Below are positions 1 through 54,867 of a DNA stretch of 64,000 bases, piece by piece (within the stretch, counting starts at the first letter, position 1; each line of letters starts with the position of its first letter). A program made the position numbers and the translations under genes. The stretch lies in contig CM039008.1 in NCBI GenBank assembly GCA_017499595.2, forward strand, positions 558,001 to 622,000. The letters are read 5' to 3'. A model generated the notes under the pieces. It was not told the DNA's origin. It did no database searches and saw nothing but the letters and a program-made list of their open reading frames with translations. Source of the DNA: Psilocybe cubensis. Its lineage: Eukaryota.

Positions 1-1165
1 GTCAACTTTTCAATGTCCTTGAAGCTTTTCATGCAGAAAATCTGCCTTGTAGCTCCTGGGTCGCGCAGCGTATATTTGAAATCCTTTGCTTAACTGCTTG
101 AACAATTAAAGGGGCCTTGACTATACCACCGCTTAGAATGATTTTAGCGCTACGGGAATGAACGAAGACAGTTCGCCAAAATCCATCTGTCCGGAGAATC
201 AAAATTTTATCAGAACAACCTATCGGCAAAGGCCATAAAGTCAAGATGAGCACTGTATTCTGCTCGGGTAGAATGAACGCTCACAATGAAATTCATGTCT
301 GGCGAAACACAAGAACGCCGTTCTGCGGCGCAAAGTGTAAGTATCTGTTTCGTGAAGTCCCGGTCTAAAGCTCCTCCACCACGACATTTGCTTCGTAACG
401 CTCCGGCGGGAAGCCCAGATTCAGATCCAAGCCAGTGCCACGTTATTGCAGAATTGTGTTACGAGAGTCAAAATCAGGTAGCCTTTCATCTGGATTCTGT
501 AATATACTTATGCTATGTGGTGGCATAAATCTGGATTATCTCCAGGCGCCATATTTGCGATACACCGAACGGCAATGCCACGTCTATTTAATTTACCTGG
601 GCCTTAAATGCTTATTCCAGTCCATTCTGCAGTCAAATAGTATGCCCTGCCTTAGTGTAAAGTAGTAGTTGAAAGGCGTTTTTCGTCAATCCGTTGGAAT
701 CTTGTTGAACGTTTTGCGTAAGTTGGAAAATGAAATTCGCATTTTCCCGGTCCATAGACACTAACTTGATAATCTTGATTTAACGACGTGGGATGCAAAT
801 TACTGCAGGATTTCTTCATAGACTAAATGGCAAACGGCAAAACTACGTCCAGCTACAACTAACGCAGAATTACAGTCGCTGCAAACTGCACCGTCGTTGA
901 TCAGATGTCTCTGTTCTTACAGAGTTGTACAGCGCAGAGTTCCTAACTTGATTGCGCTCGCAAATTTTTCTTCAAGAAAATTGGCACCAAGGATTTTCAG
1001 ACTTTCAAATATTTTATTTGACTTCACAGCTGTCAGGTCGATACTCCGCCAACTCAACGGGCTTTTAATCGTTACTAAGCATCTGTAACTATCACGAATA
1101 TGAAAGTCGAAACAGAGGTGGCAAAAACAATTATTGCGAACAAAATTAACCAGTCGCCGATAACC

Positions 1166-5556: not shown

Positions 5557-6508
5557 GCTTTGTGGAGGTTTATATTAGTTTCATTATCACGATGTTCTCC
5601 ATGTCAGCTGTTCCTCACGTCACTGAGCACTAGGTAGGAAGCGTACTCGTGGAAAGCTTTTGCCTATATTTGCAGTGTATTCCGATCGATGACCGTATGT
5701 GCGCACACTGGGAATGGTGGGACCAGCGCGAGGTGTCGCAAGCTTCAACCTTCGAGAAACGGTGTGTATAAACAAAGTCAACGTGGATGGTGGTGATGAC
5801 TATCCATCGGCTCATGCTGAAAGATTTATAAGCGAAGGTTATATACATTAAGAGCCTAGGAAGACGCTATCGAAAAGAGAGGGCGAACCTGAGGTGTTAT
5901 TCACCATCGCAAATACTGATTTTCCAGTTACTCGCAACTGTAAGCGGTGCATGGAAACAAGCTGAAAGCACACACGCTCGCCACCTCTCCCACTTGCGAC
6001 TCTGGTGTCTTTGACCAGAGTGTGCCTTAAGTCCGTTCCCGGCGATAGCCTGTCCGCGAAGACGAGAAGCATGGCCTACTCGCTAAACAACACAACTTTG
6101 AAAGTTTCATGGGAATTTTGGCATTGAATAACCTCTTTAAGAGCGAGACGGTAATATCAGAGCAAGTCAAGATGGTGGTCGGCGTTCAAATACACGAAAT
6201 GTGCATATCAGCTGAGCAGAAGGTATAAAAATACTTCACAGAGGAATGAAGGCGATTTTGCCTCCAGAGGACCAGAAATTCAAACAATCAAATCAAATCA
6301 CGTGTGCGTGACAGCGTGACTTGCACGAACAGTCACTTCCACGCGATGCTCGTCCTCCGTTTCCGCTAATGCCACTTTTTTAAAGCACCAACGTTTAATA
6401 GCGGCTACGGAACGTCCAAGATATCTTGAGTTTGTCCAAGTTCGATTTTCTATTTGGATTTCACACCAAGCATTCCTTTTACTCTTATGAATAGGTTGCT
6501 TCAAATTC

Positions 6509-16960: not shown

Positions 16961-18121
16961 ATGTCACCATCACCACACGTAGTACCAATCGCAGATTCGA
17001 CCTCTGTTTTCAAACCAGATCTTTTCAAAGGGAAAGTCCTATTTTGCACTGGTGGAGGTTCTGGTATATGTCGTGGAATGACAGAAGCAATGGTCAGTGA
17101 TTCTATTAATTACCCTTGAGAATTCCTGACTGACTTTAACTGCGCAAAAGATGCGCCATGGTGCGAACGCAACCATCGTTGGGAGGAAGTGCGTGTGTTC
17201 CATGTTGATCCTTTCGTTCGTTGATTTTCATTCGACGAAGGCTCGAACGTTTGACCCAGGCTGCCAAAGAGCTCTCAGAGGCTACTGGTCAAGAATGCAT
17301 AGCTGCACAAGGAGATGTTAGACAACCCTCCACCTTAAAAGAAGCAGTCGCCAAAACTATTGCAAAGTTCGGAAGAATTGACTACGTCATCAACGGTTAG
17401 AAATTTGCTTATATGCCTCATACCAGAGTCAGACTGATTCTAATGCGTCGTATTTTTTGTCATAAAGGTGCTGCTGGAAATTTCTTGGTTCCTATTTCTG
17501 AAATGTCAGAGAACGCGTTCAAGACTGTCATGGAAATTGATACCGTATATTCTTTTCTCCCCCAAACATGTGGGGTTGTCACTTATACTTGTACAGATCG
17601 GAACTTTCAACACAATTAAAGCAACTCTCGCTCACATTCGTGCTTCGAAGGGTGCTTACATTCACGTTAGCGCTACTCTTCACTACAACGGTAAGTTGGC
17701 AATCCGCGTATCCGAAAACTGTTTCTCATGTTCCGCAGGCACACCCTACCAAGCTCACGTCTCCGCTGCGAAAGCCGGCGTAGATGCTTTGTCCGCCGTA
17801 TTGGCAGTCGAAGAAGGTCCTAATGGTGTCCGCTCTAATGTGATAGCACCAGGGCCTATTGCTGGTACCGAAGGCATGGATCGTCTGTCACCAAAAGGAG
17901 ACGTTCCCAACCAGCCTGGTCTTCCAGCCGGTCGTATGGGTGTGGTAGGCGACATTGGAAACGCCACTGTTTTCTTATTCAGCGACGCCGCTGCTTTTAT
18001 TACTGGTCAAGCTCTCGCTGTAGACGGCGGTGCTTTGCATCTCCAGTCGACGTTCCTTCCCTACCCTCAATCCGTGATTGATCCTCAACGCTTTGCTCAT
18101 CTTATCAAACCCAGACTATAA
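16961..18121 (+). CDS. Peroxisomal-type 2,4-dienoyl-CoA reductase (SDR family, SPS19-like), multi-exon
   Basis: FKGKVLFCTGGGSGI Rossmann motif, NGAAGNFL, YQAHVSAAKAGVD, VRSNVIAPGPI. C-terminal PRL resembles a PTS1 variant. Confidence 0.9.
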
Positions 18122-39792: not shown

Positions 39793-41230
39793 ATGGCACC
39801 CTCCGTTGCGCAAATTGAATCCGTCGTCTCCGACCCAATCCAAGTCGCGAAGGAAAACTTGAAGACTCAAGCAGCCGAGAAAACCGGGGAGATTGAATAT
39901 GACACTAGCAAGGTACATTTTAGTTTTTCTACCGTCTATGATCAGCAGGTTTAGTTTACCTCCTATTCGCAGACTCCCTCCTATCCAGCCTACCTCCCTT
40001 ACTTTGACGTCAACGAGAAGTTCCCTCCTCTGGAACTCTTTGGTATGCAACTTCGCTATCGTCACACTCTTTTATTTATTCAGAATTTGTAGACCACGTC
40101 GACCCTGGATCGCGCGCTGACCCCAAGAAGCCCCATCTTCTTACACCTAACGTCGAGACTACTCACATCAGCCCCTATCTCGGTACCGAGGTGAAGGGAA
40201 TCCAGCTCTCGTCTCTTGGAAAGGAGGGATTGGACGAATTGGCATTGTTGGTCGCGGAGAGAAAGGTCGTCATTTTCCGTGATCAGGATTTCAAGGATTT
40301 GGGCCCCGAGCGCCAGATCGAAATAGCCAAGTAGGCTTTTTGACAATTTTTTTGAAGGGGGGAACTGATTAAATGGTTAAGGCACTTCGGCCCCATCCAC
40401 GTTCACCCGACCTCTGGAAACGTGAAGGGTTTCCCAGAGTTCCACGTCGGTCAGTACAGAATCAAAGTCTCATTTATTTAATGCTCATATATTCTGTCCT
40501 GCAGTTTATCGTGATGCTAAGCACAACCGATTCCAAGAATATACTGGAGGCAACCGCATCAACCATACTTCATGGCACTCCGACGTCTCGTACGAGCGTC
40601 AACCTCCTGGCACCACCTTCTTCTTCATCCTCGACCAAGTGAGTACTATTCCAGGAACTTTAAAATGCATGGCATTTAATCAATGCGTCACCAGCCCGAA
40701 GTCGGAGGAGGAGACACCCTCTTCCTGTCCCAAGTTGAGGCATACAACCGCCTTTCCCCTGAATTCCAGAAACGCCTCGAAGGTCTCAAGGCCGTCCACT
40801 CCGCCGTCTACCAGGCCGACTTCTCCAGGAAGCGCAACGGCCCTGTCCGCCGCGAGCCCGTTGAGACTGAGCACCCTCTCGTCCGCGTCCACCCGGTAAC
40901 TGGAGAGAAGGCTCTTTACGTCAATCAGGGATTCACTCGTCACATCGTTGGCTACCGCGCTGAGGAGTCCGAGTATCTCCTCAAGTTCCTCTTCGACCAT
41001 ATTTCAAAGGGTGCCGACTTCCAGATCAGGGCACGGTACGAGCCTGGAACTGTAGTTGTCTGGGTACGTTATTTGCTGTATGATTGTGAACTTACTTTCT
41101 GACTGATATACACCCCCTGTAGGATAACCGAGTGACGGCACACTCTGCGACCCCTGACTTCAGCTCTACCTTCCGCAGGCACGCCGTCCGCCTCACGCCC
41201 CAGGCCGAGGTACCCTCAGAGAAATTCTAA
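39793..41230 (+). CDS. TauD/TfdA family Fe(II)/2-oxoglutarate dioxygenase (sulfonate dioxygenase-like)
   Basis: WHSDVSYERQPPG (HxD), GGDTLF, EHPLVRVHPVTGEKALYVN, VWDNRVTAH. Confidence 0.93.
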
Positions 41231-41860
41231 ATTCTGGTGGCTCAGAACCCCTGCTGATATGTTTGATATGGATGAGCCGCACTGAAATCTTTTACAAATA
41301 CGCAATTGTACTCATACCATGTATATTTTTGTCTTTAATTCAACTCCATGTATTCCGCATTTCATTTCGAGGAAGTGATGAAAAGGTTTGTTGTTGTGGG
41401 CCAGAGAGGACAGGATGAGCAGGTGCCCACGGGACATCTTGATGCAATGATGGGATAGATGATAGAAAGCCTTGTAAGCGAAATGCGTTAGACGCTCGAG
41501 CTGTGTTCTGGCGCTTACGCGTCGCGAGTGTCTGCTTTGCGTCCCGGTTAAAGACTGAGGCGAGAATCGGCAAAAAAAGAGGTATAGATAAGCAATTACC
41601 ATGTCATAGGCGCAGCAACTGTGATTGGCGTATGATATGTGGGGTTTGCGTGGAGAACAGTGAATGTCGAACGTTGACCATTGAAGTTGAAGGTCAAAAG
41701 GAGTTGAAAAGGAGATTCATCGGTCAATAGGATGTCATAATCAATCATCAATTGAACAACAACAACAACAACTCACGGCAATCACAGGATTTGCCCCTGT
41801 CTTCGTTCTGACAGTGGAAATGAAGTCCCTTAAGCCCTAAATACCTTCGCGGGCGGAAGA

Positions 41861-43148
41861 AGGACCCTCGGCATTTAGCCCAAAGGACGTTCCGTCGGAC
41901 GGACAAAAATTTTGAAAATCGACCCCTTAGGACGTTCCAAAACCGGACAAAAATGACTGATTTTGAGCAAAATGTCGTTCCAGAATTCCGGACAGAAAAG
42001 TTGCAGGACCACCGAGGTCGATCCAAAAACCGGACATATATCATGATCAACGACCCTCAAAATATAAGTCATCGGTTAGTATAGAGGCTAAGCGTGTAGT
42101 CGCTCCCCGCCCTTTGTAATGTGATACTACGTTGTTGTTTCTAATCTCGATATCGCCTTTTTAGTATTTTGCCCTTAGTAAACCCATAGTTCAAGAAAAT
42201 TGGTATAACCGTAAGAATAACAACAAAATGTAATGAGATTTTACAAATTATGAATTTGGCTACTTTCGATCACCTAGCTACCTCTGTCGACCTAGCTACC
42301 TCTTTCAGCCTCTTTCCTTGCATTGTTTTCCATGGCTAACAATATAATTGACCTCAACGACAATCGCCCTTTTGTCGACTCAGACTGGATTTTGCAAGGC
42401 AAAAAATATCCTTCTCCAGCTCCAGCATTTATTGAAGATGCAAAAAAGGCACTGTTGACGGTTCCATCGCCCTTTCAAGAAGATATTCCCCCATCCAATC
42501 AGTGTCTCAATTCATTACTACTCAACTGCCAGAAATATCTGTGGAAATCATTTCAGTCAAGACAGCGGCATGGTTCAGCAGAGACGCACCAACCACAAAC
42601 CCTATCTGCCTTCGTACACGGCCTATACCCAACATTACATTTCTCCGCAACCTAGTGCAAGTTACTCACTCTCCTCCATCATAAACCCTTGCTTGTCACT
42701 CCAACAGGTTTTGAGGTCCATGCACAAGATATTTCCCTTTACAGAACACTGTTTGCCGGAGTAGGAAGCATAAAAAAGGCGATGAAAATGTTTGCAAAGC
42801 GAAATTTAGATATTATTACATAGATTTTCTGCATCACACATTCAATTGTAGTTATGTATTCCTACCATCAGCTTTTTTTCGATTACAGGCATCCACAAAA
42901 TGGTTCAGAAGTATCCTAATTGCTGCTGCGCGGGCGCAGCAGCGAAAAAATTGAATTTTGTGCCTGTCCGGACACGAATTGGGCCTCTGGAGGGTCGTTC
43001 CCAATTTCCGGACAAACTTCCGAAAAAATTGATAGGTCGTTCTATATCCGGACAAAAATTTTCAAAATCGCTGAAAATCGGGTCGGACAAAAATCCCAGA
43101 AATCGACTTTTTTTGGGAACGTCCTTTGGGCTAAATGCCGAGGGTCCT
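41861..43148. mobile_element. Non-autonomous TIR DNA transposon, 1288 bp, 8-bp TSD
   Basis: Perfect 33-bp TIRs AGGACCCTCGGCATTTAGCCCAAAGGACGTTCC. TSD GCGGAAGA at 41853-41860 and 43149-43156. Repeated subterminal CGGACA motifs. Frameshifted internal ORF fragment at ~42332-42660. Confidence 0.93.
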
Positions 43149-43299
43149 GCGGAAGAGAGTAAGTATGTAAGTACCATCCATCATGCATCAATGTTAATTA
43201 TCAAATCTTTGGGGCTCGCGCCGGCAAAAACGCCGTAGTTCGTACATGTAGCACCAGGAATTATCTAGGCTGCTTTGCAGTAGTTGGGTTGCGCCCCTC

Positions 43300-46200
43300 A
43301 TGGCAATGGATATTCTGACTTCCCCCACCTTCATCGCGTCTGCTTCGTTAGGAGCGCTCGCTGTGTATTATCTTGCTGGATCACAAAAGCGGGACTCGCG
43401 ACATCCTCCAGGCCCGCGGCGTCTCCCAGTGATAGGCAATGCACACCAAATGCCAGACAAAGATCCTTGGCTCGTATTTGGAGAATGGGGGAAGCGATAC
43501 GGTACGTGGTTGAGCATTGAAGCGTAAAAGAGCGTGTTCATCATTGGGCCCGATACTGGTGCTTGTGGGTTAAAAATTAAAAAAGAAAATAAAAAAAGAA
43601 AATACAAAAAAGGAAAGAGAAGGAGGGAAGGGAGGGAACGAATTCACCCTTCATTTCATACTACTAACATCGTTACTACACTGTTAGTATCTAACATATC
43701 AGTGGTTCGCATTGCTTCACGATTAGCCGGCTTGGTTCAACTCGGCTAAACTCTTGATTCTCGCTTAGATGAACAAAAATACACGAAAAATAAATCAAAC
43801 ATGGTAAGAGCCCCGAATACATTTCATGGAATCTGATGCTCGCTTACGATTTGACCTCGCATAGATAGCACTGTGCAACGGTTAGATGAAGGTGCGCACA
43901 TCTCCGACGCCAAGGCAAAGGACTTAGCTGGAAACTGCAACAATTCACAGCAGGGCACCAACAACGCCCACCCGCCGTTCCCGCCGTGATTCCCCAACCC
44001 ACACCAGCAACAACACCCAGAAAATCGAATTGAATACGCGTTGCCGACGCATCCACCATCCCCATGCTCATCAGCCGCGTCCCCCATCCATTCCCAGGCT
44101 CGTCAAAACTAAACACCGCGCTTCCCACTTCGAAGACGACGCGCTCGCGTCACGTTGGGGCTCTTGACGACTTGAACGTGCTTTGCCGACGCGTTCACCA
44201 CCCATTCCCGTCCTCGTCAAGGCTATCCACCGCGCTTCGTGCCTCGAAAACGATGTGCTCGGATGATGTTGAGGGTTCTTGGCAAGGTTAGTGTCACTGA
44301 CAGCCTCCATATGATGCTGTACTCACCATACCACACTCATACACACCCAGCAAGTCGTATCGAACACGTTTCAATGCCTCTCTACACCCCGCCTCCCAAA
44401 CTGGCCGTGCTCATCTTACAAAACATCGTCGCTGTGCTTCCCGCTACGAAAACGCCATGCCGGTGAGATTTCTTCTCAAGGTGAGTGACCCCGACAACCT
44501 CTTTAAATTTTAGTGCCATACTCACCAACATAACCAGCTCGTTCATGGCCAGCTAGGCACGATGAGCCTGAACACGCTGCGACAACGCGTCCTCTATCCC
44601 TTCCCGCAGATCCGCGTGTGGGGCTGTTGTCAAGGTTAGGGTCGTTGACAGCCTCTATCTCACCATACCCAACTCGTACGTCTCTGCACATGTACGTGTG
44701 TTCCACGTAGTGACGTGCTCGTCTCGCAGATGAACTCGTCGCTGCGCTTCCCGATTCAAAAACACCACGATTTCTTCTCAAGGTTAGTGACCCCATCGAA
44801 GTCTTTTTACTGGCACGCTGTGTTGATGCGTCCAAGTCTTCTATCCATCCCTGCACATCCAATTGTGTCCGCCACGAAATTAACACCCATGAAGTCACAT
44901 CCTTGAACAAAGCATTCCTGCACTTTCGCATGGTGTGTCCCTTGAAAACGATGCGCGTCAAGGTTAGTGATGGTGTTGACCACATTTGAAGAATGCTCAC
45001 CAAGAAAAACACGGACCCTCGCATCCAGACCCACTGACCGCATCATTCTCACGTTGACGGCCGGTGTGGTAAGTGCCGTCTCACACGAAAAGTGATTCTG
45101 GACACTTGGGCATGCTGATGCGTAAAACGCGCTCCTTGGGATGGGCAGATTGATGTTTGTGGTGTTCATGAGGGACACATAGCCTGCTGTGCAGGTGAGG
45201 GGTTGAGGGTGCTAATTGGGCGAAAAGGGAAGGATGATCGAAGACGCGGTAGCTAGAGGATCAACTCTGGTAATGTTTGAGGGTTTCTGAAACTTGTTCT
45301 AGATTACGGACAAATAATAAGGAGTACAGTAAGTGATTTATTAATTTTATAGCAAGTTGTAGTACTAATTTCAATGGTTTCTACTATTACATGAATGAAA
45401 TCCAGATGTCATGAGCATTTAGGTCAGTTTAGGCCATCGCTCCTCGGGAACATCTACCCATCCCACATAACAAGGCTTGTCAGGTCGCTTGGTGTACCGA
45501 CCTTTGCATTTGACATTTCCACAATCACGACAACGGTTGTGGCAATGCTTGACCCGTTGGCGACCCGAACATTGTGTGGAGCCGCATTTTGCACAGGTAC
45601 GAGGCCGTTTTCCCTTATCTAAAGCGTGCGATCGTTGAATCTGTTCACGCACACGTTTCTCAGACAGTGCTTCGCGATTTACACGATTGTGTACTGCAAG
45701 ATTTGTCGCGGTAGTAAAGGTTTTTCGAGTTGTTGAGTGGGGCAGCAAAAGGTCGGAATTTGCACTTTGCAACGGTGTCTGTTGGTCATCGTGTACAGGT
45801 GTGTCTTTGTTGTTACCATGCACCTCTGAACGATTTGTATTAAAGGTTCCAACAGAAACGGACGTTGGAAGAAGTCCGTCATCGACACTCAGTGGTTTCA
45901 GAGTTTTCTCTGGTACACGGGGTGCCGTTACTGAGCGAGATGGGTTGCTAAGGATTGCTGCCAATGGTTTCCGAATGTCATATGTTGTAAAAAGAGACTC
46001 TTTAACATTGAGGTTTGTTTTCCAATGTGCATAGTACGATTTTAATTGTTCAATTAACTGCAGTAAATGAATATTAGGATACTAGTCATGTTTAAGCTAT
46101 TTTGTGCTTACCTTGTATGATATCTCTGAATTGATATCAGCGTAGTGATTCCAGACCTTCACGGCCTTTTTCCAGATTGGGCCGGATGTCAGAGAGTTGT

Positions 46201-49200
46201 AGTCGGGATTGGCTTGCATAAGATCTCGGAAAAGCTGCTTTTCAATGTCGTTATGAATCGGAAGAATGGGCTTTCGTGTGTGTTGCATTTGAGCTAGAAA
46301 AGCATGACGTTGCTTTTTGTCAATGCTAGGAATAAATTCAGACATCCCAGTTGCAATGCGAATGCTGGTTGGAATCGGAAGAATGCCTAACGTTTCGGTG
46401 GTAGGAATGTATAGGTTTCCGTTAACCCATCCAGTAATTTCCACGGGATTTATTAGAACATCGTGAAGAAATGACAATCGCTCCTGAATGCTGTTGGTTA
46501 ACCAGATTGAGAAATGGCTGCGATACTTTTGTCCAGTGCTATTGAATGTTCCAACCTAACAAAACAGTTTAATATGATAGAGTAAGTAACAGTAGATATG
46601 GTCTTTCTTACCACAAGGTTGTGGTGCAGAGTGAAATCAGCAAGGCATGAGTAAACATGTTGCACTGATGCACCCGACGATGGAAGATGTGATCTAAGAT
46701 GAGTATGTACTCCACCCTCTGTCATGTTTGTTCCACGAAAACATCGATAGATAGTGAGACTTGGTGCTGCACTATCAATCCCTATTGCCGCATAGAGAGG
46801 AATTCCGGGTGGATCAGATATAAAACCGCGTCGTGTCAAATCAAGAATATGGCCCGAGGTCTTCCAATCATTAAAGTTAAACAAAGGAGCACCTGTTGTA
46901 GCATCTTTGAGGGGGCCAAAAGTTTCAAAAACCTTCTTTAGCAATCCATGCAGTATGTCAGCTGGTGGAATGATTCGTTTACATCGTTTCCATAACCAGC
47001 GTGGACGAAGCTTTTGGATTTGCTCAAAAGTCAATGGTGGTGTTTGCATTGCGCCCCATGCACTAATTTTGGCACGGTCTTCACCGTCAGGAATAAATAT
47101 TGCATCCCGAAGCTGTCGGGCAAACTCTGCACGTAAACCATGTGTTGAGGAGATATGAAACATGTTGAAAACATGGAAAACGTCTTTGAGGACCCGGCTC
47201 CGAATTGTACTGTCCCAGGTATTTGGATACTGGTCCAGTACTTGTTGGCCTAACGATGCACTTTCTGGGTCAATATTGCGAGGATGGTCTGTGGTTATAG
47301 GAGGTGCACTAGTAGGCCGATGATTTTCAACAACAAGATTTCCGATTGAAGGAATTGAATCATCATCAAAAGTTGCATCAAGTGAGAGGTCGTTATCATC
47401 CAACTCTGCCAAGCTGGCAGTCAATAGATCCTGATTGGATGACTGATCTAGAGACATAGGGCTTGTTTGAGCTCTAGAAGACGAGTCCGACTGACTTGAA
47501 TGATGTGTCCAAAATGTTGGCGAAAAGGTCTTTAAATGACTTCGTAAACAGACAAGAGTAAATGGTGGTGTCCCAAATGATGCAAGTGAACAGTTCCGAT
47601 GACTGCTGATTAGTGCACCAGGGACAAATACTTCTTCAATGTCGACAGCAGTTCTTGTAGTAGTAATATTGATGCCATCGAGTTGCCTATCATCTTTGTG
47701 GGATGAAATTTTTCCTCGAGCAATCACAGATGCCTTGTCGGTGTTGAATAAGAGAACAGGAATGCCTGCATTAAATTGAGAAGGAAGAACTTGCGGTGTT
47801 TCAAGAGTCGAAAGTTTGTTGTAAATGCATATACAAGCATATGCATCACAGGCTGCATAGGCGAGTTGATCGCGAGTAAGGATTTCATTTTCCCAAGCAC
47901 TGCTAATGCGCTCGGGAACGTTTTTGTTTAATCGTTTTCCCAAAACCAATGCACATAGATCAGCCAAACTGCATCGTGCGGAAGATATTACCATTTTGTC
48001 TTTTGCATATTTGGCAAGGTCAAGAGCGCCAACAAAAGGTTTGGGTGACTGGGAAGCAGTTTGAAGATGCTTTAAATCGGCTTCAACAAGCCGTCCAGCT
48101 TTCACAATATTTGGATTTTCCAATAAAATCCTAAGCTGACTTGGAAGTGTACCGCCTGCTAACATATCACCAATCTAATCAGAATTTTATTAGTTTACAT
48201 TTAATCATTGGTTTAAGTAGCTTATACATTACCTGAAGAATGTATATGGATGATTTATATGCTATTTGAATAATAGCTGTTTGTCCTCGATGCAGAATAT
48301 GGCCATTAGATGATACTTCAACATTCCACTCGGAATCAAACCCTATCACGATTTTTTTGTCAGGATGACTTGGATCAAGATCATCAAGAATAGAGGCCAT
48401 GGCAGCGTCTATGGCAGACGCTGTGCTTTTTACAAAAATAGCAATAGGCGGTGTCGGTACGGCAAGTGGTTCAAGATCTGGATACTTTTCAACTGGTACC
48501 ACAGACTCTCGAAGAGACGGCCAGGCATCTTCAAGGAATGCCTTGTCACTGGCAACGTTATCTGTAAATGCAAGCTTGGGTTCGGAATGACCATACATCT
48601 TGAGTGAGTGAAGCATTTGCTTGAGTGCGAGCTGGTATTGAGAATGTGACTTTGTTGCAACAAGGCTACATGACCGGATCTCGCCCCTTTCATTGGTGAC
48701 CGTAAGCAATCCCGTAAATATTTCTTCGCCATTGACCTTGGCAATATGCTTTGTGATCTGATTACAAAAATAAAGTTAGTAAAGAGTTATAGTAGTGATA
48801 ATAGACAACTACCACCTTGTGGCTATGATCGAGTGCACAAATTTCTGCACTAAGCATAGACATATGCTGGTTGAAATCATGGATATGCTCCATAATGAAT
48901 CGGTCGTACATGTTCCGGATCCATTGTGCGCTTGGTGTAAATCCATGCCTGCCATGAGGACTGATATCATCAAAACGTGGAAATGACATATACTTTTCTT
49001 CCCGCCATTTGTCCAGTTTACGGCCAGCTAATTGGTTCAAATACTGAAGATGAAGCTCATCATACTTCAGCAAATGATGCACTCGAATTGTGTCCGATAT
49101 TTGCTTTGCACCCAAACCGTTCTGGAACGACGACCTTACATACTGAAAAAGCCGTTTGGATATCGCACTACGATGACTAAGAATGGCGGGGAATTCAGCA

Positions 49201-52200
49201 GCCAAATCTTGTGGAAGTGCCGAGAGAATGCGGCTATCCCAGCTATTAAAGGTCACAGTGTGCTTTCCAGACTTTGGATGAGTGCAGACACTGCAACGAT
49301 AGCGATATCCAATAAGATAGAATTCGGAATCAATATCAATGCATCGGCGAGGATATGATATATTTGCGTGACGTTGTAGTGTTGACTTGCAAATTGGACA
49401 GGGAATGCGTTTGAATAATGCTTGAGGGTCCCACAAATAAAAGCGGATATCCCACAGCTCATGGGGAGACGGTTTGTTGCGTTGAAGAATGAAATATATT
49501 GCTGGTCTAGGAAACCAAAATGAACAGTTTTTGGAATACAAGGGGGGAAGGCCATGCTTGTCTCGTTTTTCGGGCGCAGATTCCAAAACTTTGGCTTCGA
49601 AAGCCTCGAGAAGCCAAACAGGACGCGCATGACGGATGCGCCTACCTGTATTTTCTTGGTACTCACTGTCCTCAACATTCTCATCAACTGGATCCAGCTC
49701 ATCACCCTTTTCATCCTGATTCTCCTCAAACCCAACATCTACACCAATTCCCTCGCCCGACATTCCAGTTTCTTCATCTTCGTCCTGGTCTTCATCGGCT
49801 AGTTCAACCGGTCTCTGGGGATCTTCATCCGGAATAATTTCAATTGTTGACAACGATGTGGGTTCGGAGACATTTGGTAGCACAGGATTTTGAGCGAAAA
49901 GAGGGTTGGGGAGTGTTTGGCGAGTTGATGGGTCCACCGATACGAGAGGTGATCCACCGGACAAATTTGGCATTGAATTTCCTCGATGAAGAGGAAAAGG
50001 AAGTCCCGATGGCGGGCGTGAAGGCTGAAAAGTGCCTGGAATGGTCTATGACAATGGTAAACCATGTTAGTTGTAAACAAGTAGATAAAATTAATAAGAC
50101 TCACCACACGGCCGAATTCTATTGAAATCTGAGGCTTACTTTTCCGTGGCCGCCCAACAGCTTTCTTTACAACAGGTGTTTGTTGTGCTTTTGTGCCAGA
50201 ACCTTTCGGCCTGCCTACGGGGCGGCGATGAGCAGAAGAATCTGTGTCTTCTCCCACTGCTCTGGATTTACTCTTGCTTCCCAGCGGTCGCCCACGCTTT
50301 CGAGGACGTGAAATCAAGTCCACGGGATATGGGGTAGCTGATCCGGACTCGTGGAAATGCGCAGGTGTCGTTACATTGAATAACGTATGAACTAAACAAC
50401 CAAAATAAGCCGCCGAGACTTCAACATCAACAAGGGTTACACATACCTTCTTTTTCCCTCGGTTGACTGGGCATGGGAACGTCAAATGTACGTTCGGAGA
50501 CATGCGACAATCTAAGAGACCTCAAGTCAGCATACTTTGTACAATGTGAGTGATGCAATTTGTGGCTCACAATGGGCCGCCTAGTCTCGTTGATTGCTGT
50601 GGATACGAAGATTCCAAATCCATTGTTGTTGGATGCCAATCCATGATAATTCACAGTACGTGAGGGGAGATGAGGGACAGCAAAAGGTAAACAGCGGTAA
50701 GAATACGGCGCAAGCAAGGTACAGAGGAGTGCTGAGACGGCCGCGCGACTCGAGTAGACGCAGACGCGACGTGAATGAGACGGGATGAGATATTTCCCAG
50801 TCATGTGAATAATTACATAATATTCTCAGCATCAGTATCCAGCATCAGCCACAGGCATGGATAGCGAGCCCATCATTGAGTGAAATTCAGGCAATATCAT
50901 TCACGTCGACGTTTTCGGGCAGTCATTGATCATCATCAATTCCACAAAGGTGGCCAAAGACCTGCTTGATAAGCGCTCGTCTATTTACTCCGATCGACCC
51001 CACTTTGTGAGTTTCTCAACTTTCTTCCCAATTGCTCGTATTGCTTAAACTCAACAACATCGTTTCTTCAAGACATTTGCGGGAGATCTGTAAGCCTATC
51101 CCCCCATTACCATCCTAATGAATATGATGAAAGTGACTATTGGCATGCCTTCAGAGTTCACTACGACGAAACATTTGTTCTCCAGCCATATGGCGAGAAT
51201 TGGAGAAAACAGCGCCGTATGGTCGCTAATGATTTTTCGCAGAGCATGGTCCCCCGTTATTTCAGCCTGCAGGACAAAGAATCGGCGAGGCTAGTGCGAA
51301 ACTTGATCAAAGACCCCAGCAAGTTCATATCTGAGGTCAATCTGTGCGTACACACCCTTTCCTTTATTTAATTTGGATTATTGTCGATATTTTGTCTGAT
51401 GTTTTGAAACCACTAGGCGAATAGGAATCATCATCCTCAGAGTGACGTACGGGTATTACGTTGAGTCTGCCGACGACCCATTTTTGACAACACCGCTGTT
51501 GGCGATGGCGAATTTTGGGAAAGCAACGCAGCCCGGAAATTTCTTGGTCGATTTCGTGCCTGCTTGTACGTCGTGATCATTCCACAAGGTGGACAGAGGG
51601 AGCGGAATTTAACAATGGAATCTGCAGTGAAGCACATACCTCGATGGATGCCGGGAGCGGGTTTTCTGAAGACTGCTGAAGAAATGCATAAAGTGATGTG
51701 GTCAGCAACATGGAACAATTACGAGTGGTGTAAAAACAACTTGGTATGGTCCTGACGAAAGCTGGTAGTGACGACTTGTTACAATGCTAAAACGAGGAGC
51801 AGAAAACAGGAAAGACGTTAATGCCAAATCTTTGTGGTACATTTATCCAGGAAGCAGGGGAAAATATCACGGAGGATGACGAGTTGAAACTTGGTTGGGC
51901 TGCGTCAAGTGTCATGGGAGGAGGTCTTGATACAGTAGGCCTTCGCCTTCTTCTTGCTAAGTTGCGACATATGAGGATTGTGTTTGACAGAATGTATCCT
52001 CGGTTATGACGTTCTGGGCTGCTATGATTCTGAACCCCCAAATCCAAGCAAAGGCGCAGGCAGAACTTGATAGTGTTGTCGGAAAGGATAGATTACCCAC
52101 CATATCAGATAGGCCACGATTGCCGTATATCAGGAGCATAATGGCGGAGGTGTTTCGTATGGGTCCTTCTATACCTCTAGGTCAGTTTATCACCTGTGCC

Positions 52201-52773
52201 GTTTTTGCTAACGCTGACAAAGTCCACCCTCCAGGAATACCCCATGCAGTTAGTGAAGATGATGTTTATGAAGGATATCATATACCCAAGGGCGCCTTTA
52301 TCTTGCCCAACGTTTGGTGTGTACAAACTTGGTCCAACGTAGTCACTCATTGACACTCGATGCCAAAGGCACATGTTGCACGACCCAGAAGTCTATCCAG
52401 ACCCGATGGAGTTCAAACCCGAGAGATTCAATGGTAGCGAATCAGAGATGAAGAAGGCGACAGACCTCGTCTTTGGATTCGGCAGACGAGTTTGTCCAGG
52501 AATGCATTTTGCGGAAGGCACACTCTTTGCAATTATTGCAACTACTCTCGCGACCTGCCATATTCTGCCTGGACTCGATGAACATGGGAAGGAAGTGTTG
52601 CCCAAGTTTGCGTACACCCCGGGGACAATTACGTATGTTGCTTTCTTGCATTAGATTTGTAACTTCTCCTGATATGGGTTGATAGTTTCCTGGAGCCATT
52701 TCCTATGAGGCTAAAGGCGCGCTCTCCGGATGCCATTTCTTTGTTAGAAAATGTCCCTTCGGATGTTGAGTAA
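43300..52773 (+). CDS. Cytochrome P450 (fungal CYP64-clan-like), intron 1 interrupted by a 7.3-kb transposon
   Basis: Exon 1 (43300-43501) has a TM anchor and PPGP hinge. Exon 2 from 50891 continues in frame (YG|NIIHVDVFGQ...LLDKRSSIYSDRP). GGGLDT, EVFR, PERF and heme motif FGFGRRVCPG are present. Stop at 52771-52773. Confidence 0.9.
44076..45030 (+). repeat. Degenerate tandem modules in the non-coding arm of the transposon
   Basis: CAAGGT(T/G)AG(T/G) recurs at 44283, 44477, 44631, 44779 and 44959. Similar blocks at 44076-44146/44191-44261 and 44424-44492/44735-44793. Confidence 0.65.
45419..50503 (-). CDS. ~1599-aa transposase: AT-hooks, DUF6729-like Zn domain, DDE core with nested DEDDy 3'-5' exonuclease, C-terminal Cys cluster
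   Basis: Six exons (50503-50105, 50045-48816, 48757-48233, 48174-46612, 46555-46112, 46057-45419) joined by five phase-0 GT-AG introns of 54-59 nt, with no stops. Motifs: GRP x3, CPIC..YRYRC, ALDHSHK, FTDN, GFDSEW, EADL, YAACDA, KDVFH, RGTNMTEG and CAKC...CRDC. Exact start uncertain. Confidence 0.88.
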
Positions 52774-52980
52774 GGCAGCGGTGGCCATGATAGGCTGGCT
52801 TGAGATAGATTTACGAGGTAATATAAAAGGTAGAAGTATTCAGGCAAATAGGGCGTACACCACGAGTTTGGGAAAGAATACTCTTCTGAACAACAATTAA
52901 GATACATACATACAGTTGGTGATACATCGGCCATGCCATAGCCATATAGACACCCGTAATGGAGTCTACTTGACAATAGA

Positions 52981-53118
52981 AACAACACCCCGAGCTTCAA
53001 AAGAAAACCAGTTGAATTATTGTTCAGCGTGCAGGACGAAAACACATACAACAACACCCCGAGCTTCAAAAGAAAACCAGTTGAATTATTGTTCAGCGTG
53101 CAGGACGAAAACACATAC
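52981..53118. repeat. Perfect 2 x 69-bp tandem duplication
   Basis: AACAACACCCCGAGC...GAAAACACATAC repeated exactly at 52981-53049 and 53050-53118. Confidence 0.95.
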
Positions 53119-53255
53119 CTGACAAGGAGTCTTTTGCAATGCTTGTACTCTGTCGCGAACTTAGTATGCTTGTAGATATATAAAAACGTTTGAACTTTTC
53201 AAAGCTTACCAGCCCTTTTATGATCTCATAAACGCTTGTAACATCACGGGTAAAA

Positions 53256-53326
53256 TGGAACACGCGGGAATTGCACCACGCGCAACCGTTGGACTAATCT
53301 GTCCCATTAACCTATGCCATGTTACT
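53256..53326 (-). other. Degenerate tRNA-like / Pol III-type sequence (pseudo-tRNA or SINE head)
   Basis: Box A-like TGGCATAG and box B-like GGTGCAATTCC at tRNA spacing, T-arm hairpin, partial acceptor (AACA/TGTT) and D stems, followed by TTTT. The anticodon arm does not pair. Confidence 0.35.
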
Positions 53327-53480
53327 TCCTGACCACCCGTCACTCTGGGACCCTAACCCAGGCCGGCCATGGTTAGTCGTGAACGTTGAACGGTGACCGA
53401 ACCGTCACATATACCCACTCGCCAACAAAAAGCCGGTGAACGCTTTCAAGTTTTAAATCTTCGATGCTGAATACTATCAG

Positions 53481-54867
53481 TATGAAAAAATTGTCCAGCC
53501 GCTTGATGGCCATAGCATCACTGGCGAGTACATCCCTGCTCTTCATGGATTTGGTGGAAACGTTCAGGCAAGTCTCCCGGAACTGAGCTTCCCCATCGAC
53601 GCTCGCGTCCTGGCTACGCTCAACCAGCCGTCTTCGGAGTTCCAGTACAACAACGACACGGTGGGCGGGGACCAAATTGTGCTCGGTGTGGGCTATGTCC
53701 AGAACAGCTCCAGGGAGGGGACGCGCAGCAGCGCCTACACCGGATACTACCTCGCTGCGGCCGCGAGGCAGAACTTCGTCATTCTAACTTCGGCGACCGT
53801 TTTGAAGCTCGTTCAGACTGGAACGACCGCAAATGGGCTCAAGTCGTTTCGGAGCGTACAGTACGCCCATGGGACTTTGACATGTGAGGCATGATAACCC
53901 GTATTCCAACGTAAGGATGGGGCATGCTAATACAGGTGTTTAGTGACAGTGACTGCGACTCGAGAAGTCATTCTTTCCGCAGGGGCTATCAACACGCCGC
54001 AGATCCTCCAGCTCTCTGGAATCGGAAATGCAGTTGACTTGCGAAAACTGAACATAACCGTTTTAATCAACAATCCAGCAGTGGGGAGCAACCTTTATGA
54101 CCACACACTCCTTCCCAACATCTTCGTTGTCCAAGATGCAGTGGCCAACCAGACATTTGACGATTTATTGCGAAACCAGGCCCAGATAGAAGATCAAGTT
54201 AATCTCTGGATCGCTAATAGAACTGGCCTTTTTATCAATAATATTGTAAACCACTTTGGCTTTTCCTGGATTATGTTGGACCCAGGGGAAGAAGACCCTG
54301 CACCGGGTCCCAACTCGCCCCACTACGAGATGATTTTTGCTGTGCGTTGACGGTATATAGTATTTTTTGATGCTCAAGTGGCACTAACACGCATCAACCC
54401 ACAGAATCTTTTTTTCGAAAAGCCTGGGCCCTTTAGACCAGACGAAGGCAGCTATTTTACGGTTGGAACTATGCTAACTAGCCCAGAGTCCAGTGAGTAT
54501 CACTCTGATTCCTGTGAACCATAGTTTTTAATTATTGGCATGTCGCCTTTTCATAGCTGGGACCGTTAAACTTGCCAGTGAAGATCCATTGGCCCCGCCG
54601 ATCATCGACCCCAGATACCTCACTGAGGTGTTTGACATTATAGCAATGCGAGAGTCCGTCAAAGCCGTATTGCGCTTTACAGCGGCGCCTGCATGGAGCG
54701 ACTGGATCGCCGGGCGCTTCGGCGCTGCATTCCAAAATGCCACGGACGACGCGTCGATCGACGCCTACGTTCGCACTCTCACAATATCTGACATGAACCT
54801 CGTCGGCACTGCGTCCATGTCGATGGTCGATGACCCCTCCGGCGTTGTTGGCCCCGACTTGCTGGTA
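53481..54867 (+). pseudogene. Truncated GMC oxidoreductase (aryl-alcohol oxidase-like) fragment
   Basis: GTRSSAYTGY, REVILSAGAINTPQILQLSGIG, VGSNLYDH, PPIIDPRYL. No N-terminal GxGxxG exons found upstream. Similarity stops after GVVGPDLLV. The catalytic His position reads DMNLVGT. Confidence 0.8.

What the first reader, a model, noticed from the sequence alone, without database searches (positions are those of the whole stretch)
43539..50878. Intact exonuclease-carrying (Dada-like) DNA transposon with defined ends, inserted in a protein-coding intron
Seen: a complete element bounded by the direct repeat CATCATTG and weak inverted termini (GGGCCCGATA... versus the reverse complement GGGCTCGCTA...). 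If the GGGC/GCCC ends belong to the element, the duplication reads as 6-bp ATCATT. Known (from memory): Dada elements have MULE/hAT/IS256-related transposases, 6-7 bp TSDs and no long TIRs, and are noted for targeting U6, U1 and tRNA genes. Inference: this is a young fungal member whose target is not a small-RNA gene. It may be a lineage with relaxed or different sequence specificity, with ends resolvable to the base.
Basis: partly seen in the sequence, partly recalled or inferred. Interest (0 to 1): 0.85.

Follow-up and report, generated by a model that had tools for sequence, protein, structure and literature searches.

The report
Young Dada-type transposon in P450 intron
A 7.3-kb jumping gene of the rare Dada type, still intact and transcribed, sits inside a short intron of a cytochrome P450 gene of the mushroom Psilocybe cubensis, and other strains still carry the empty site, so its ends can be read to the base.

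Summary
The 8-bp repeat CATCATTG flanks a 7,324-bp insert (43547-50870) in a 57-nt intron of a P450 gene. All three DNA runs laid on the locus carry the empty allele with a single CATCATTG.

Reads from other copies diverge exactly at 43547 and 50870. The ends form an imperfect inverted repeat, 17 of 26 bases.

The insert encodes an intact 1,601-aa protein in 8 exons. In order it has a CCCC zinc finger/DUF6729, a DDE triad, a DEDDy exonuclease inserted before a DxxH motif, and the catalytic E. The Dada paper describes this architecture for Laccaria bicolor (PMC3706591). Laccaria proteins are 53-58% identical.

The fold of the core is closest to the IS256-family transposase ISCth4. Sister copies are 99.8-99.9% identical, and spliced transcripts exist. 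A second, convergent spliced transcript lies in the left arm.

No small-RNA gene is at the target.

Verdict: a real, young element of the Laccaria-type Dada lineage. It departs from the published Dada description in duplication length, terminal repeats and target.

The parts
43539..43546 (.). Left copy of the 8-bp target-site duplication CATCATTG
   Evidence: The empty allele holds it once (joint 43538->50871, 'both' = 8).
43547..50870 (-). The transposon, 7,324 bp. Strand given is that of the transposase gene.
   Evidence: Loose ends of other copies lie at 43547 (48 reads in X14) and 50870 (50 reads in X14). X8 contigs start at 43547 and end at 50870. The skip of 7,332 equals 7,324 plus 8.
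43547..43572 (+). Left terminal inverted repeat (imperfect)
   Evidence: 17 of 26 matches to the reverse complement of 50845-50870.
50845..50870 (-). Right terminal inverted repeat (imperfect)
50871..50878 (.). Right copy of the 8-bp target-site duplication
45419..50623 (-). Transposase gene. The coding sequence has 8 exons and encodes 1,601 aa: 50623-50571, 50511-50447, 50391-50105, 50045-48816, 48757-48233, 48174-46612, 46555-46112, 46057-45419 (stop 45421-45419). The 7 introns are 54-59 nt.
   Evidence: Spliced mapping reproduces P0001 (KAH9475789.1) letter for letter. 5 of 7 introns are among the spliced joints listed for the X9 contigs. A sixth is hinted by a 17-letter loose end at 48759. 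The intron 48175-48232 was not seen.
48900..49532 (-). DUF6729 region, with the CCCC zinc finger (C351, C354, C386, C389 at 49400-49284)
   Evidence: Pfam PF20499, E 1.6e-19. The four Cys are invariant in 24 sequences (first-sequence positions C216, C219, C251, C254). They are invariant or nearly so.
48828..48830 (-). First catalytic Asp, D541 (motif DHSHK)
   Evidence: Invariant in 25 of 25 sequences.
48560..48562 (-). Second catalytic Asp, D611 (motif FTDN), 70 residues after the first
   Evidence: Invariant. There is a weak Pfam MULE match over this stretch, E 0.0096, below the cut-off.
47788..48418 (-). DEDDy 3'-5' exonuclease domain (residues about 659-849; D686, E688, D753, Y826, D830). 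It is interrupted by intron 48175-48232.
   Evidence: Pfam PF01612, 1.8e-12. WRN exonuclease 2e6l, E 9.4e-16. In the model of relative P0073, VIA Z 16.4, rmsd 2.1 over 136 residues.
47173..47184 (-). DxxH motif (D1051, H1054)
   Evidence: Invariant in 25 of 25 sequences.
46717..46719 (-). Catalytic Glu, E1206 (motif TEGGVH)
   Evidence: Invariant in 25 of 25 sequences.
45455..45592 (-). C-terminal Cys-rich motif (CxxCG...C.G...C...C.DC...C.GR)
   Evidence: Present in about half of the 25 aligned relatives, including the Mucoromycota one.
43774..45250 (+). Second, convergent spliced transcript with 6 GT..AG introns: 43892-43950, 44287-44350, 44481-44537, 44676-44729, 44783-44836, 44963-45028. 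It lies over degenerate repeats of about 150 bp. Its coding status is open.
   Evidence: X9 contig of 1,121 nt, word depth 38.2. Intron phasing is and the repeats (D1-D4). The 3' limit is inferred from the contig length. The spliced longest open frame is 188 codons against 96 unspliced, and 18 of 2,000 shuffles reach 188.
43300..43501 (+). Host cytochrome P450 gene, exon 1
   Evidence: Open frame from ATG 43300, followed by donor GTACGT at 43502.
50891..51006 (+). Host P450 gene, exon 2. Later exons run to about 52654.
   Evidence: The frame continues across the restored intron. Pfam p450 matches are at 51991-52353 (2.7e-18) and 52346-52654 (2.1e-17).

Best explanation
This is an autonomous DNA transposon of Psilocybe cubensis, 7,324 bp long. 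It belongs to the exonuclease-bearing fungal lineage that Kojima and Jurka filed under the Dada superfamily (their Laccaria bicolor elements).

Shown:
- It inserted recently into the 57-nt first intron of a P450 gene and duplicated 8 bp of target (CATCATTG).
- The site is still empty in other strains.
- Sister copies are almost identical.
- Both of its transcription units are spliced and expressed somewhere in the species.
- Its 1,601-aa protein has every catalytic residue of an RNase-H-fold DDE transposase with a DxxH motif. It also has every catalytic residue of a WRN-like DEDDy 3'-5' exonuclease inserted between the second D and DxxH.

Inferred mechanism:
- The zinc-finger/DUF6729 part and the core bind the imperfect 26-bp terminal inverted repeats.
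- The DDE site frees the 3'-OH ends and joins them to target DNA cut with an 8-bp stagger. Repair of the gaps gives the duplication.
- I take cut-and-paste as the most likely route (about 0.6), as in eukaryotic Mutator-like, hAT and P elements.
- The exonuclease probably trims 3' ends or flaps during excision or integration. That is the 2013 paper's suggestion and is untested.
- Target choice in this copy is not a small-RNA gene.
- The insertion stretches the P450 intron from 57 to 7,389 nt, which very likely harms splicing of that allele. I did not test this.
For: Mobility and ends:
- Empty allele with one CATCATTG in 3 of 3 DNA runs laid (X11, X8, X14). Other copies end at 43547 and 50870.
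- In X14 the element depth is about 130 against about 56 in the flanks (table 2).
- Imperfect terminal inverted repeat, 17 of 26, p 1.6e-5.

Intactness and youth:
- The coding sequence equals P0001 with no stop.
- The 90% cluster has 5 members. P0105 has 1 mismatch in 1,527 aligned residues and P0106 has 2 in 930. Each, like P0001, is recorded on a 3,050,190-bp contig.

Expression: spliced X9 contigs cover the element.

Family:
- Pfam DUF6729 1.6e-19 and DNA_pol_A_exo1 1.8e-12.
- Invariant C..C..C..C, D541, D611, D1051xxH1054 and E1206, and the DEDDy residues, in 25 fungal relatives.
- D-D spacing is 70, against 68 in Dada-U6_DR and 66 in ISCth4.
- The paper states that Laccaria and Ectocarpus Dada carry a DEDDy exonuclease between the second D and DxxH.
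- Laccaria bicolor proteins P0334 (53% identity over 83% of the 427-aa exon) and P0360 (58% over the 261-aa core).

Fold: AF2 model of relative P0073, mean pLDDT 76.3.
- ISCth4 (IS256 family): Foldseek E 1e-3; VIA Z 12.3, rmsd 3.9 over 284 residues, model range 112..1056.
- WRN exonuclease: Z 16.4.

Leads only: the nearest ESM Atlas clusters are commonest in Chordata, Basidiomycota and Oomycota.
Against: - I could not compare the protein directly with a curated Dada transposase. Every named relative I could see was fungal.
- The duplication is 8 bp, not the 6-7 bp given for Dada. The ends are inverted repeats, whereas Dada-U6 is said to have none. The target is not a small-RNA gene.
- The 8-bp length rests on one insertion. 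The ends are fixed by loose-end positions whose flank consensus agreed at only 0.54, so several copies are mixed.
- None of the three DNA runs laid demonstrably holds the filled allele. The insertion at this site is seen only in the window itself.
- Which copy gives the RNA is unknown.
- Cut-and-paste is assumed, not shown. The empty alleles carry no footprint, so they look like never-occupied sites rather than excisions.
Confidence: 0.85

Rival explanations
1. Same element, different mechanism: it moves by copy-out/paste-in like bacterial IS256 and ISCth4. That route goes through a circular or tandem intermediate in which the two ends are joined with a spacer of about 6 bp, followed by integration with an 8-bp duplication.
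For: - ISCth4 is the best transposase match of the fold.
- ISCth4 makes 8-bp duplications and prefers a 6-bp spacer at end-to-end junctions (PMC7780238, passages read).
- In X14, 2 raw reads join 50870 to 43544 with GAG between. That puts 6 letters between the last and first base of the element (table 5c).
- The Dada paper itself reports apparent 8-bp flanking repeats for Dada-U1, with tandem copies separated by 6 bp.
Against: - Only 2 reads, below the tool's own threshold of 3 for listing a joint. They could be a chimera or a tandem insertion.
- No structure of a eukaryotic Mutator-like transposase appeared among the matches. ISCth4 may therefore simply be the nearest available neighbour.
- To my recollection, no eukaryotic DDE transposon is known to use this route.
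Confidence: 0.12
2. It is a Mutator-like (MULE) or other C/DxxH-group element rather than a Dada, and the Laccaria elements were misfiled.
For: - Weak Pfam MULE hit over the second-D region (E 0.0096, 16.8 bits).
- IS256/MULE-type fold.
- An 8-bp duplication and terminal inverted repeats are more typical of hAT, P and MULE elements than of the published Dada description.
Against: - The MULE match is below the 27.6-bit cut-off.
- No hAT or P domains were found.
- The CCCC finger plus DUF6729 ahead of the core, and the exonuclease position, match the Dada description.
- Muszewska et al. needed a dedicated Dada profile because no Pfam domain matched the Dada RNase H-like domain (PMC5751038, passages).
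Confidence: 0.07
3. It is an ordinary host gene, the 'Werner syndrome ATP-dependent helicase-like protein' of the GenBank record. On this view the other strains carry a microhomology-mediated deletion, not an empty site.
For: The name given by the source, and the 8-bp repeat, which could mediate a deletion.
Against: - No helicase domain. Only the exonuclease part matches WRN.
- Multiple near-identical copies exist whose ends coincide with the 'deletion' ends.
- The short form restores a canonical 57-nt intron in a P450 gene.
- One strain (X11) shows no depth on the element anywhere along it, yet has the flanks.
Confidence: 0.01

Closest known systems
Dada-1_LB / Dada-2_LB of Laccaria bicolor (Dada superfamily; Kojima & Jurka 2013, PMC3706591)
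   Same: - Agaricomycete host and a size of 5.7-7.8 kb, with introns.
- DDE plus DxxH transposase with an N-terminal CCCC finger.
- DEDDy exonuclease inserted between the second D and DxxH.
- Laccaria predicted proteins are 53-58% identical in the conserved parts.
   Different: - In the text I read, termini, duplications and targets are given only for Dada elements in small-RNA genes, not for the Laccaria ones.
- Here the ends, an 8-bp duplication, a 26-bp imperfect inverted repeat, an empty allele and a second transcript are defined.
- I could not check identity to the Repbase entries themselves.
Animal and Perkinsus Dada families (Dada-U6, -U1, -tA, -tL and others; PMC3706591, PMC8869645)
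   Same: The transposase motif set and D-D spacing (68 against 70). They also share an ambiguity between 8-bp apparent repeats and 6-bp spacing of tandem copies.
   Different: - They have no exonuclease domain.
- Their duplications are 6-7 bp.
- Dada-U6 has no terminal inverted repeats, only 9-bp sub-terminal ones.
- They insert strictly into U6, U1, 5S or tRNA genes. This copy is in a protein-gene intron with no small-RNA gene within 14 kb.
IS256-family transposase ISCth4 (PDB 6xgx, 6xg8; PMC7780238)
   Same: Best transposase match of the fold: Z 12.3, with 284 of 355 residues aligned across the whole core. Also DDE with D-D spacing of 66 and 8-bp duplications.
   Different: - ISCth4 is bacterial, about 400 aa, without an exonuclease or the DUF6729/zinc-finger region.
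- It moves by copy-out/paste-in, which is not shown here.
- Sequence identity is only 8-10%.
WRN-type DEDDy exonuclease domain (PDB 2e6l, 2fbt)
   Same: All five catalytic residues are kept. E 9.4e-16, Z 16.4.
   Different: Here it is a domain inserted inside a transposase, with no RecQ helicase. The GenBank name 'Werner syndrome ATP-dependent helicase-like' reflects this domain only.

Membership tests
Dada superfamily | DDE triad with a DxxH (C/DxxH) motif after the second D | tested here: met
   D541, D611, D1051xxH1054 and E1206 are invariant in 25 of 25 aligned relatives. D-D spacing is 70, against 68 in Dada-U6_DR.
Dada superfamily | N-terminal CCCC zinc finger before the catalytic core | tested here: met
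   C351, C354, C386 and C389 (CxxC...CxxC). They are invariant in the 24-sequence alignment and shown.
Dada superfamily | C-terminal CCHC zinc finger | tested here: inconclusive
   A conserved C-terminal Cys-rich motif is present in about half of the 25 relatives. Its equivalence to the CCHC of Dada-U6_DR cannot be judged without the paper's alignment, because the supplement is closed.
Dada superfamily | Sequence clustering with curated Dada transposases (Repbase) | not testable with these tools
   - No Repbase or Dfam here.
- Indirect: 53-58% identity to Laccaria bicolor proteins, and the same exonuclease position as stated for Dada-1_LB/Dada-2_LB.
- Atlas leads point to chordate clusters.
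- All named sequence hits seen were fungal.
Dada superfamily | Target-site duplication of 6-7 bp | tested here: not met
   8 bp. The empty allele has one CATCATTG, and other copies end at 43547 and 50870. This is one insertion only.
Dada superfamily | Insertion into a specific multicopy small-RNA gene | tested here: not met
   The target is intron 1 of a P450 gene. There are 0 tRNA genes in the window and 0 Rfam matches at E <= 1 in 40000-54000. This is one site only, and other copies were not examined.
Dada superfamily | No terminal inverted repeats (as described for Dada-U6) | tested here: not met
   17 of 26 terminal bases are inverted-complementary, p 1.6e-5.
Laccaria/Ectocarpus-type Dada | [quoted passage not shown] | tested here: met
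   D686, E688, D753, Y826 and D830 lie between D611 and D1051.
Mutator-like elements (MULE/MuDR) | Pfam MULE transposase domain above the gathering score | tested here: not met
   16.8 bits against a cut-off of 27.6, E 0.0096.
hAT superfamily | hAT dimerisation or BED domains, and an 8-bp duplication | tested here: not met
   The 8-bp duplication is met, but no hAT-family Pfam domain appears at E <= 1 on any of the 6 exon translations.
IS256 family (works-like comparison only) | IS256-type transposase fold, 8-bp duplication, end-to-end junction with a spacer of about 6 bp | tested here: inconclusive
   Fold Z 12.3 and an 8-bp duplication. The junction is seen in only 2 reads (table 5c).

The most novel reading that the evidence does not exclude
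Dada-type elements may be eukaryotic counterparts of IS256 in mechanism as well as in fold. On this reading they make 8-bp duplications and pass through an end-to-end junction (a circle or tandem dimer) with a 6-bp spacer, which is copy-out/paste-in.

This would also reinterpret the published puzzle for Dada-U1 and Perkinsus Dada, where flanking repeats look 8 bp long but tandem copies are separated by 6 bp.

This young, expressed, multi-copy Psilocybe element would be the system in which to test it.
Probability: 0.12. Interest if true: 0.85.

Novelty: new variant of a known kind. Interest (0 to 1): 0.5.

Why it matters
In the two Dada papers I read, ends and targets are documented only for copies inside U6, U1, 5S or tRNA genes. 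The fungal exonuclease-bearing branch was known from transposase sequences (two Laccaria entries, then about 1,000 profile hits in fungi).

This copy gives that branch a base-resolved anatomy:
- 7,324 bp with an 8-bp duplication and an imperfect 26-bp inverted repeat.
- Two convergent transcription units.
- An insertion polymorphism among strains of a culturable mushroom.

It also shows that a member of this lineage can land in an ordinary gene. The 'harmless small-RNA target' strategy is therefore not universal for the group.

It is a candidate for an active element: intact, 99.8-99.9% identical copies, transcribed, and apparently missing from one strain. That makes transposition assays, and tests of what a built-in 3'-5' exonuclease does for a transposase, feasible.

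On the practical side, the GenBank name 'Werner syndrome ATP-dependent helicase-like protein' for this and its sister genes is an annotation error.

Tried and rejected
- **Whole-genome search for other copies:** no genome is held for this window.
- **Other copies inside the window:** none by end patterns with up to 3 mismatches, and none by blastn or tblastx of the element against the rest of the window.
- **6-bp duplication with GGGC/GCCC ends:** rejected on the loose-end positions.
- **Target consensus:** the X14 flank consensus sequences at the two ends do not match each other and agree at only 0.54, so several copies are mixed. The left flanks of the X8 copies were among the rows not shown. 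No target consensus could be derived.
- **Tandem Repeats Finder on the left arm:** it found only the A-rich tract at 43572-43616. The repeats of about 150 bp are too diverged and appear only.
- **Reaching animal Dada proteins by sequence:**
  - The representative search gave 1,019 hits at E <= 0.001, but only 150 are listed.
  - I looked up the 10 most distant of those. 6 carry names, all fungal, and 4 carry none.
  - The profile search (198 hits, 120 listed) and the core-region search (122 hits, 120 listed) listed only fungal or unnamed proteins.
- **Structural search:** no relative other than ISCth4 and retroviral integrases appeared among the Foldseek and VIA rows. This is no evidence against hAT- or P-like folds.
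- **RNA runs:** no RNA holder was listed. X9, guessed to be RNA, proved to hold spliced contigs.
- **Host gene splicing:** X9 has zero depth on the P450 exons, so splicing of the host gene across the insert could not be judged.
- **Earlier findings of this scan:** nothing.
- **Papers:** searches for DUF6729 (0 papers), Dada plus fungi or Agaricomycetes and Psilocybe cubensis plus transposable element turned up no description of fungal Dada termini or of this element. Repbase entries and the supplements of PMC3706591 (Dataset S1, Figs S1-S4) could not be seen and may hold such data.

Full report
**What is in the sequence**

The window is Psilocybe cubensis. The minus-strand gene of the region is identical to KAH9475789.1 / XP_047743414.1, a 1,601-aa protein named 'Werner syndrome ATP-dependent helicase-like protein'.

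The octamer CATCATTG occurs at 43539-43546 and at 50871-50878. The left flank holds the first exon of a gene (ATG at 43300) that ends at 43501 before a GTACGT donor. The right flank holds ...ATTCAG at 50890 followed by an exon in the same frame. Downstream exons match Pfam p450 (2.7e-18 and 2.1e-17). Without the insert and one octamer, the intron is 57 nt.

**Is it an insertion, and where does it end?**

No genome is held for the window, and the window has no second copy. I therefore used public runs.

Of 15 runs listed, I laid four on 42200-53000. All three DNA runs show a joint 43538->50871 that skips 7,332 bases, with 8 letters that fit on either side:
- X11: one 775-nt contig with no other letters.
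- X8: one 1,370-nt contig.
- X14: 44 raw reads from 31 start places, about the full local depth.

So the empty allele exists, with one CATCATTG.

X11 has zero depth over the whole element. It held 0.24 of the sampled words, and the flanks alone make 0.26 of the query. That strain seems to lack the family, although contigs cannot prove absence.

X8 and X14 carry the element elsewhere. In X14 its depth is about 130 against about 56 on the flanks. 48 reads run loose before 43547 and 50 run loose behind 50870. In X8, contigs start at 43547 and end at 50870, with two different right flanks.

The flank bases next to these positions differ between copies (T on the left; G, T or C on the right). The G at 43546 and the C at 50871 therefore belong to the target. 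The element is 43547-50870 (7,324 bp) and the duplication is 8 bp. The 6-bp alternative is rejected.

With the ends fixed independently, the termini match as inverted repeats in 7 of the first 9 and 17 of the first 26 bases (binomial p 1.6e-5; 5 of 200,000 random pairs from the window do as well). I found no longer sub-terminal inverted or direct repeats shared by the two ends.

**The genes**

A spliced mapping of P0001 gives 8 exons and 7 introns of 54-59 nt, from ATG 50623 to the stop at 45419-45421. There are no defects.

Run X9 was only guessed to be RNA. It holds contigs in which 5 of these 7 introns are removed, with a sixth hinted. It is therefore cDNA-like, and the gene is transcribed and spliced in some copy.

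X9 also holds a 1,121-nt contig on the other strand, from 43774 to about 45250. It has six GT..AG introns and lies over degenerate repeats of about 150 bp that each carry a donor-like CAAG|GTTAGTGA. Splicing raises the longest open frame from 96 to 188 codons, and 18 of 2,000 shuffles reach that. However, the DNA repeats are not read in one frame. Whether this second, convergent unit codes is open.

**The protein**

Pfam finds DUF6729 (1.6e-19), a sub-threshold MULE match at the second-D region (E 0.0096) and a 3'-5' exonuclease (1.8e-12).

In an alignment of 25 full-length relatives from Agaricomycetes, Tulasnella, Pucciniomycotina yeasts and a Mucoromycota species, several groups of residues are invariant or nearly so:
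- C351/C354/C386(/C389).
- D541 (DHSHK) and D611 (FTDN).
- D1051xxH1054.
- E1206 (TEGGVH).
- The exonuclease residues D686, E688, D753, Y826 and D830.

The exonuclease part matches the WRN exonuclease (E 9.4e-16). There is no helicase, so the GenBank name is misleading.

I modelled a 1,184-aa relative, P0073, which is 46% identical to P0001 in alignment A3 (mean pLDDT 76.3). Two matches stand out in Foldseek and VIA-align:
- WRN exonuclease for residues 328-485 (Z 16.4).
- The IS256-family transposase ISCth4 for the rest. Foldseek gives E 1e-3. VIA gives Z 12.3, rmsd 3.9 over 284 of 355 residues, spanning model residues 112..1056.

Retroviral integrases follow at weaker scores.

**Comparison with what is known**

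I read section 5 and passages of Kojima and Jurka 2013 (PMC3706591). They define Dada by these features:
- A DDE transposase with a DxxH motif.
- An N-terminal CCCC finger and a C-terminal CCHC finger.
- Distant likeness to MuDR, hAT, P, Kolobok and IS256, and by HHpred to integrases and Mu transposase.
- Duplications of 6-7 bp.
- No terminal inverted repeats in Dada-U6.
- Insertion into U6, U1 or tRNA genes.

They also state that the Laccaria bicolor and Ectocarpus elements carry a DEDDy exonuclease between the second D and DxxH. That is exactly the order found here.

Laccaria bicolor predicted proteins are among the relatives: 53% identity over the 427-aa exon and 58% over the 261-aa core. 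D-D spacing is 70 here, 68 in Dada-U6_DR and 66 in ISCth4.

Muszewska et al. 2017 (PMC5751038, passages) counted 1,023 Dada hits in four fungal phyla, against two Repbase entries, both from Laccaria. I found 1,019 representative clusters at E <= 0.001 for the DUF6729-bearing exon.

I could not align the protein with curated animal Dada sequences. Atlas look-alikes commonest in Chordata (scores 0.92 and 0.97) are leads only.

By protein architecture, this element belongs to the Laccaria-type branch filed under Dada. It departs from the published description in three ways:
- The duplication is 8 bp.
- It has an inverted repeat at its ends.
- Its target has no small-RNA gene: no tRNA in the window and no Rfam match at E <= 1 in 40000-54000.

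In the text I read, the paper says all Dada with definable termini were in small-RNA genes. A later fish survey reports one copy in a hAT element (PMC8869645, passages). I therefore file it as a variant of a known kind, not as something new in kind.

**Mechanism**

Shown:
- Insertion with an 8-bp duplication.
- Defined ends.
- An intact catalytic set.
- Transcription.
- Near-identical sister copies: 1 mismatch in 1,527 aligned residues and 2 in 930.

Inferred:
- The transposase binds the 26-bp ends.
- DDE chemistry joins the ends to a target cut with an 8-bp stagger.
- The route is most likely cut-and-paste.
- The exonuclease trims 3' ends. This is the 2013 authors' suggestion.

The empty alleles bear no footprint, so they are probably ancestral rather than excision products.

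A bolder reading is IS256-like copy-out/paste-in. ISCth4 makes 8-bp duplications and prefers a 6-bp spacer in end-to-end junctions (PMC7780238, passages). Two X14 reads join the right end to the left end with 6 letters between (table 5c). The Dada paper itself noted 8-bp apparent repeats with 6-bp spacing of tandem copies. Two reads are too few, and I give this reading about 0.12.

**Effect on the host**

The insertion lies 12 nt upstream of the 3' splice site and stretches the intron from 57 to 7,389 nt. That probably cripples this P450 allele. X9 has no depth on the P450, so I could not test this.

**Verdict**

It is wrong about the possible 6-bp duplication, and its claim about target specificity is unproven. 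Interest is moderate: the family is known, but this copy gives it a well-resolved, probably active example with properties that differ from the textbook description.

Noticed in passing
window 50870 joined to 43544 (run X14): Two raw reads join the right end of the element to its left end with GAG between. Counting TTG at 43544-43546, that puts 6 letters between the last and first base of the element. This could be a tandem pair, a circle junction or a chimera (table 5c).
   Followed up: partly
window 43070 and 50870 (run X14): Six reads join 43070 to the right end of the element on opposite strands, with the shorter side only 22 letters. This could be another copy next to a related repeat, or an independent nearby insertion in that strain.
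   Followed up: no
window 42770-42853: A short stretch upstream of the P450 gene behaves as a repeat. In X14, 118 reads run loose before 42770 and 94 behind 42853, and the same loose end appears in X11.
   Followed up: no
window 43148/43149 and 43049-43116: Strains X11, X14 and X8 all have extra sequence, or a rearrangement, between 43148 and 43149 relative to the window. In X14, 19 reads show an opposite-strand joint 43049/43116, which suggests an inverted-repeat structure in the P450 upstream region.
   Followed up: no
element 43547-50870, run X11: One run with the same species label as most holders has the flanks but zero depth over the whole element (word share 0.24). The family may be absent from some strains.
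   Followed up: partly
proteins P0001, P0105, P0106, P0109, P0110 (P. cubensis records): Transposases of this family and of a second family (46-47% identical) are named 'Werner syndrome ATP-dependent helicase-like protein' or 'Werner Syndrome-like exonuclease' in the source records. Only the exonuclease domain supports those names.
   Followed up: yes
proteins P0056 (P. cubensis) and P0090 (Lyophyllum shimeji): P0056 is 78% identical to the transposase core, yet its only precomputed Pfam domain is PF17667. P0090 is a Tf2-type retrotransposon polyprotein model that contains a core 57% identical. Both are likely chimeric gene models or nested elements.
   Followed up: no
window 43572-43616: An A-rich tract with a 13-nt period (AAAATAAAAAAAG, 3.3 copies) lies just inside the left end of the element, upstream of the second transcript.
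   Followed up: no
window 6494-8605 and 17447-18121: Ordinary host genes elsewhere in the window: an F-box-like protein (2.5e-09) and a short-chain dehydrogenase (1.2e-21).
   Followed up: no
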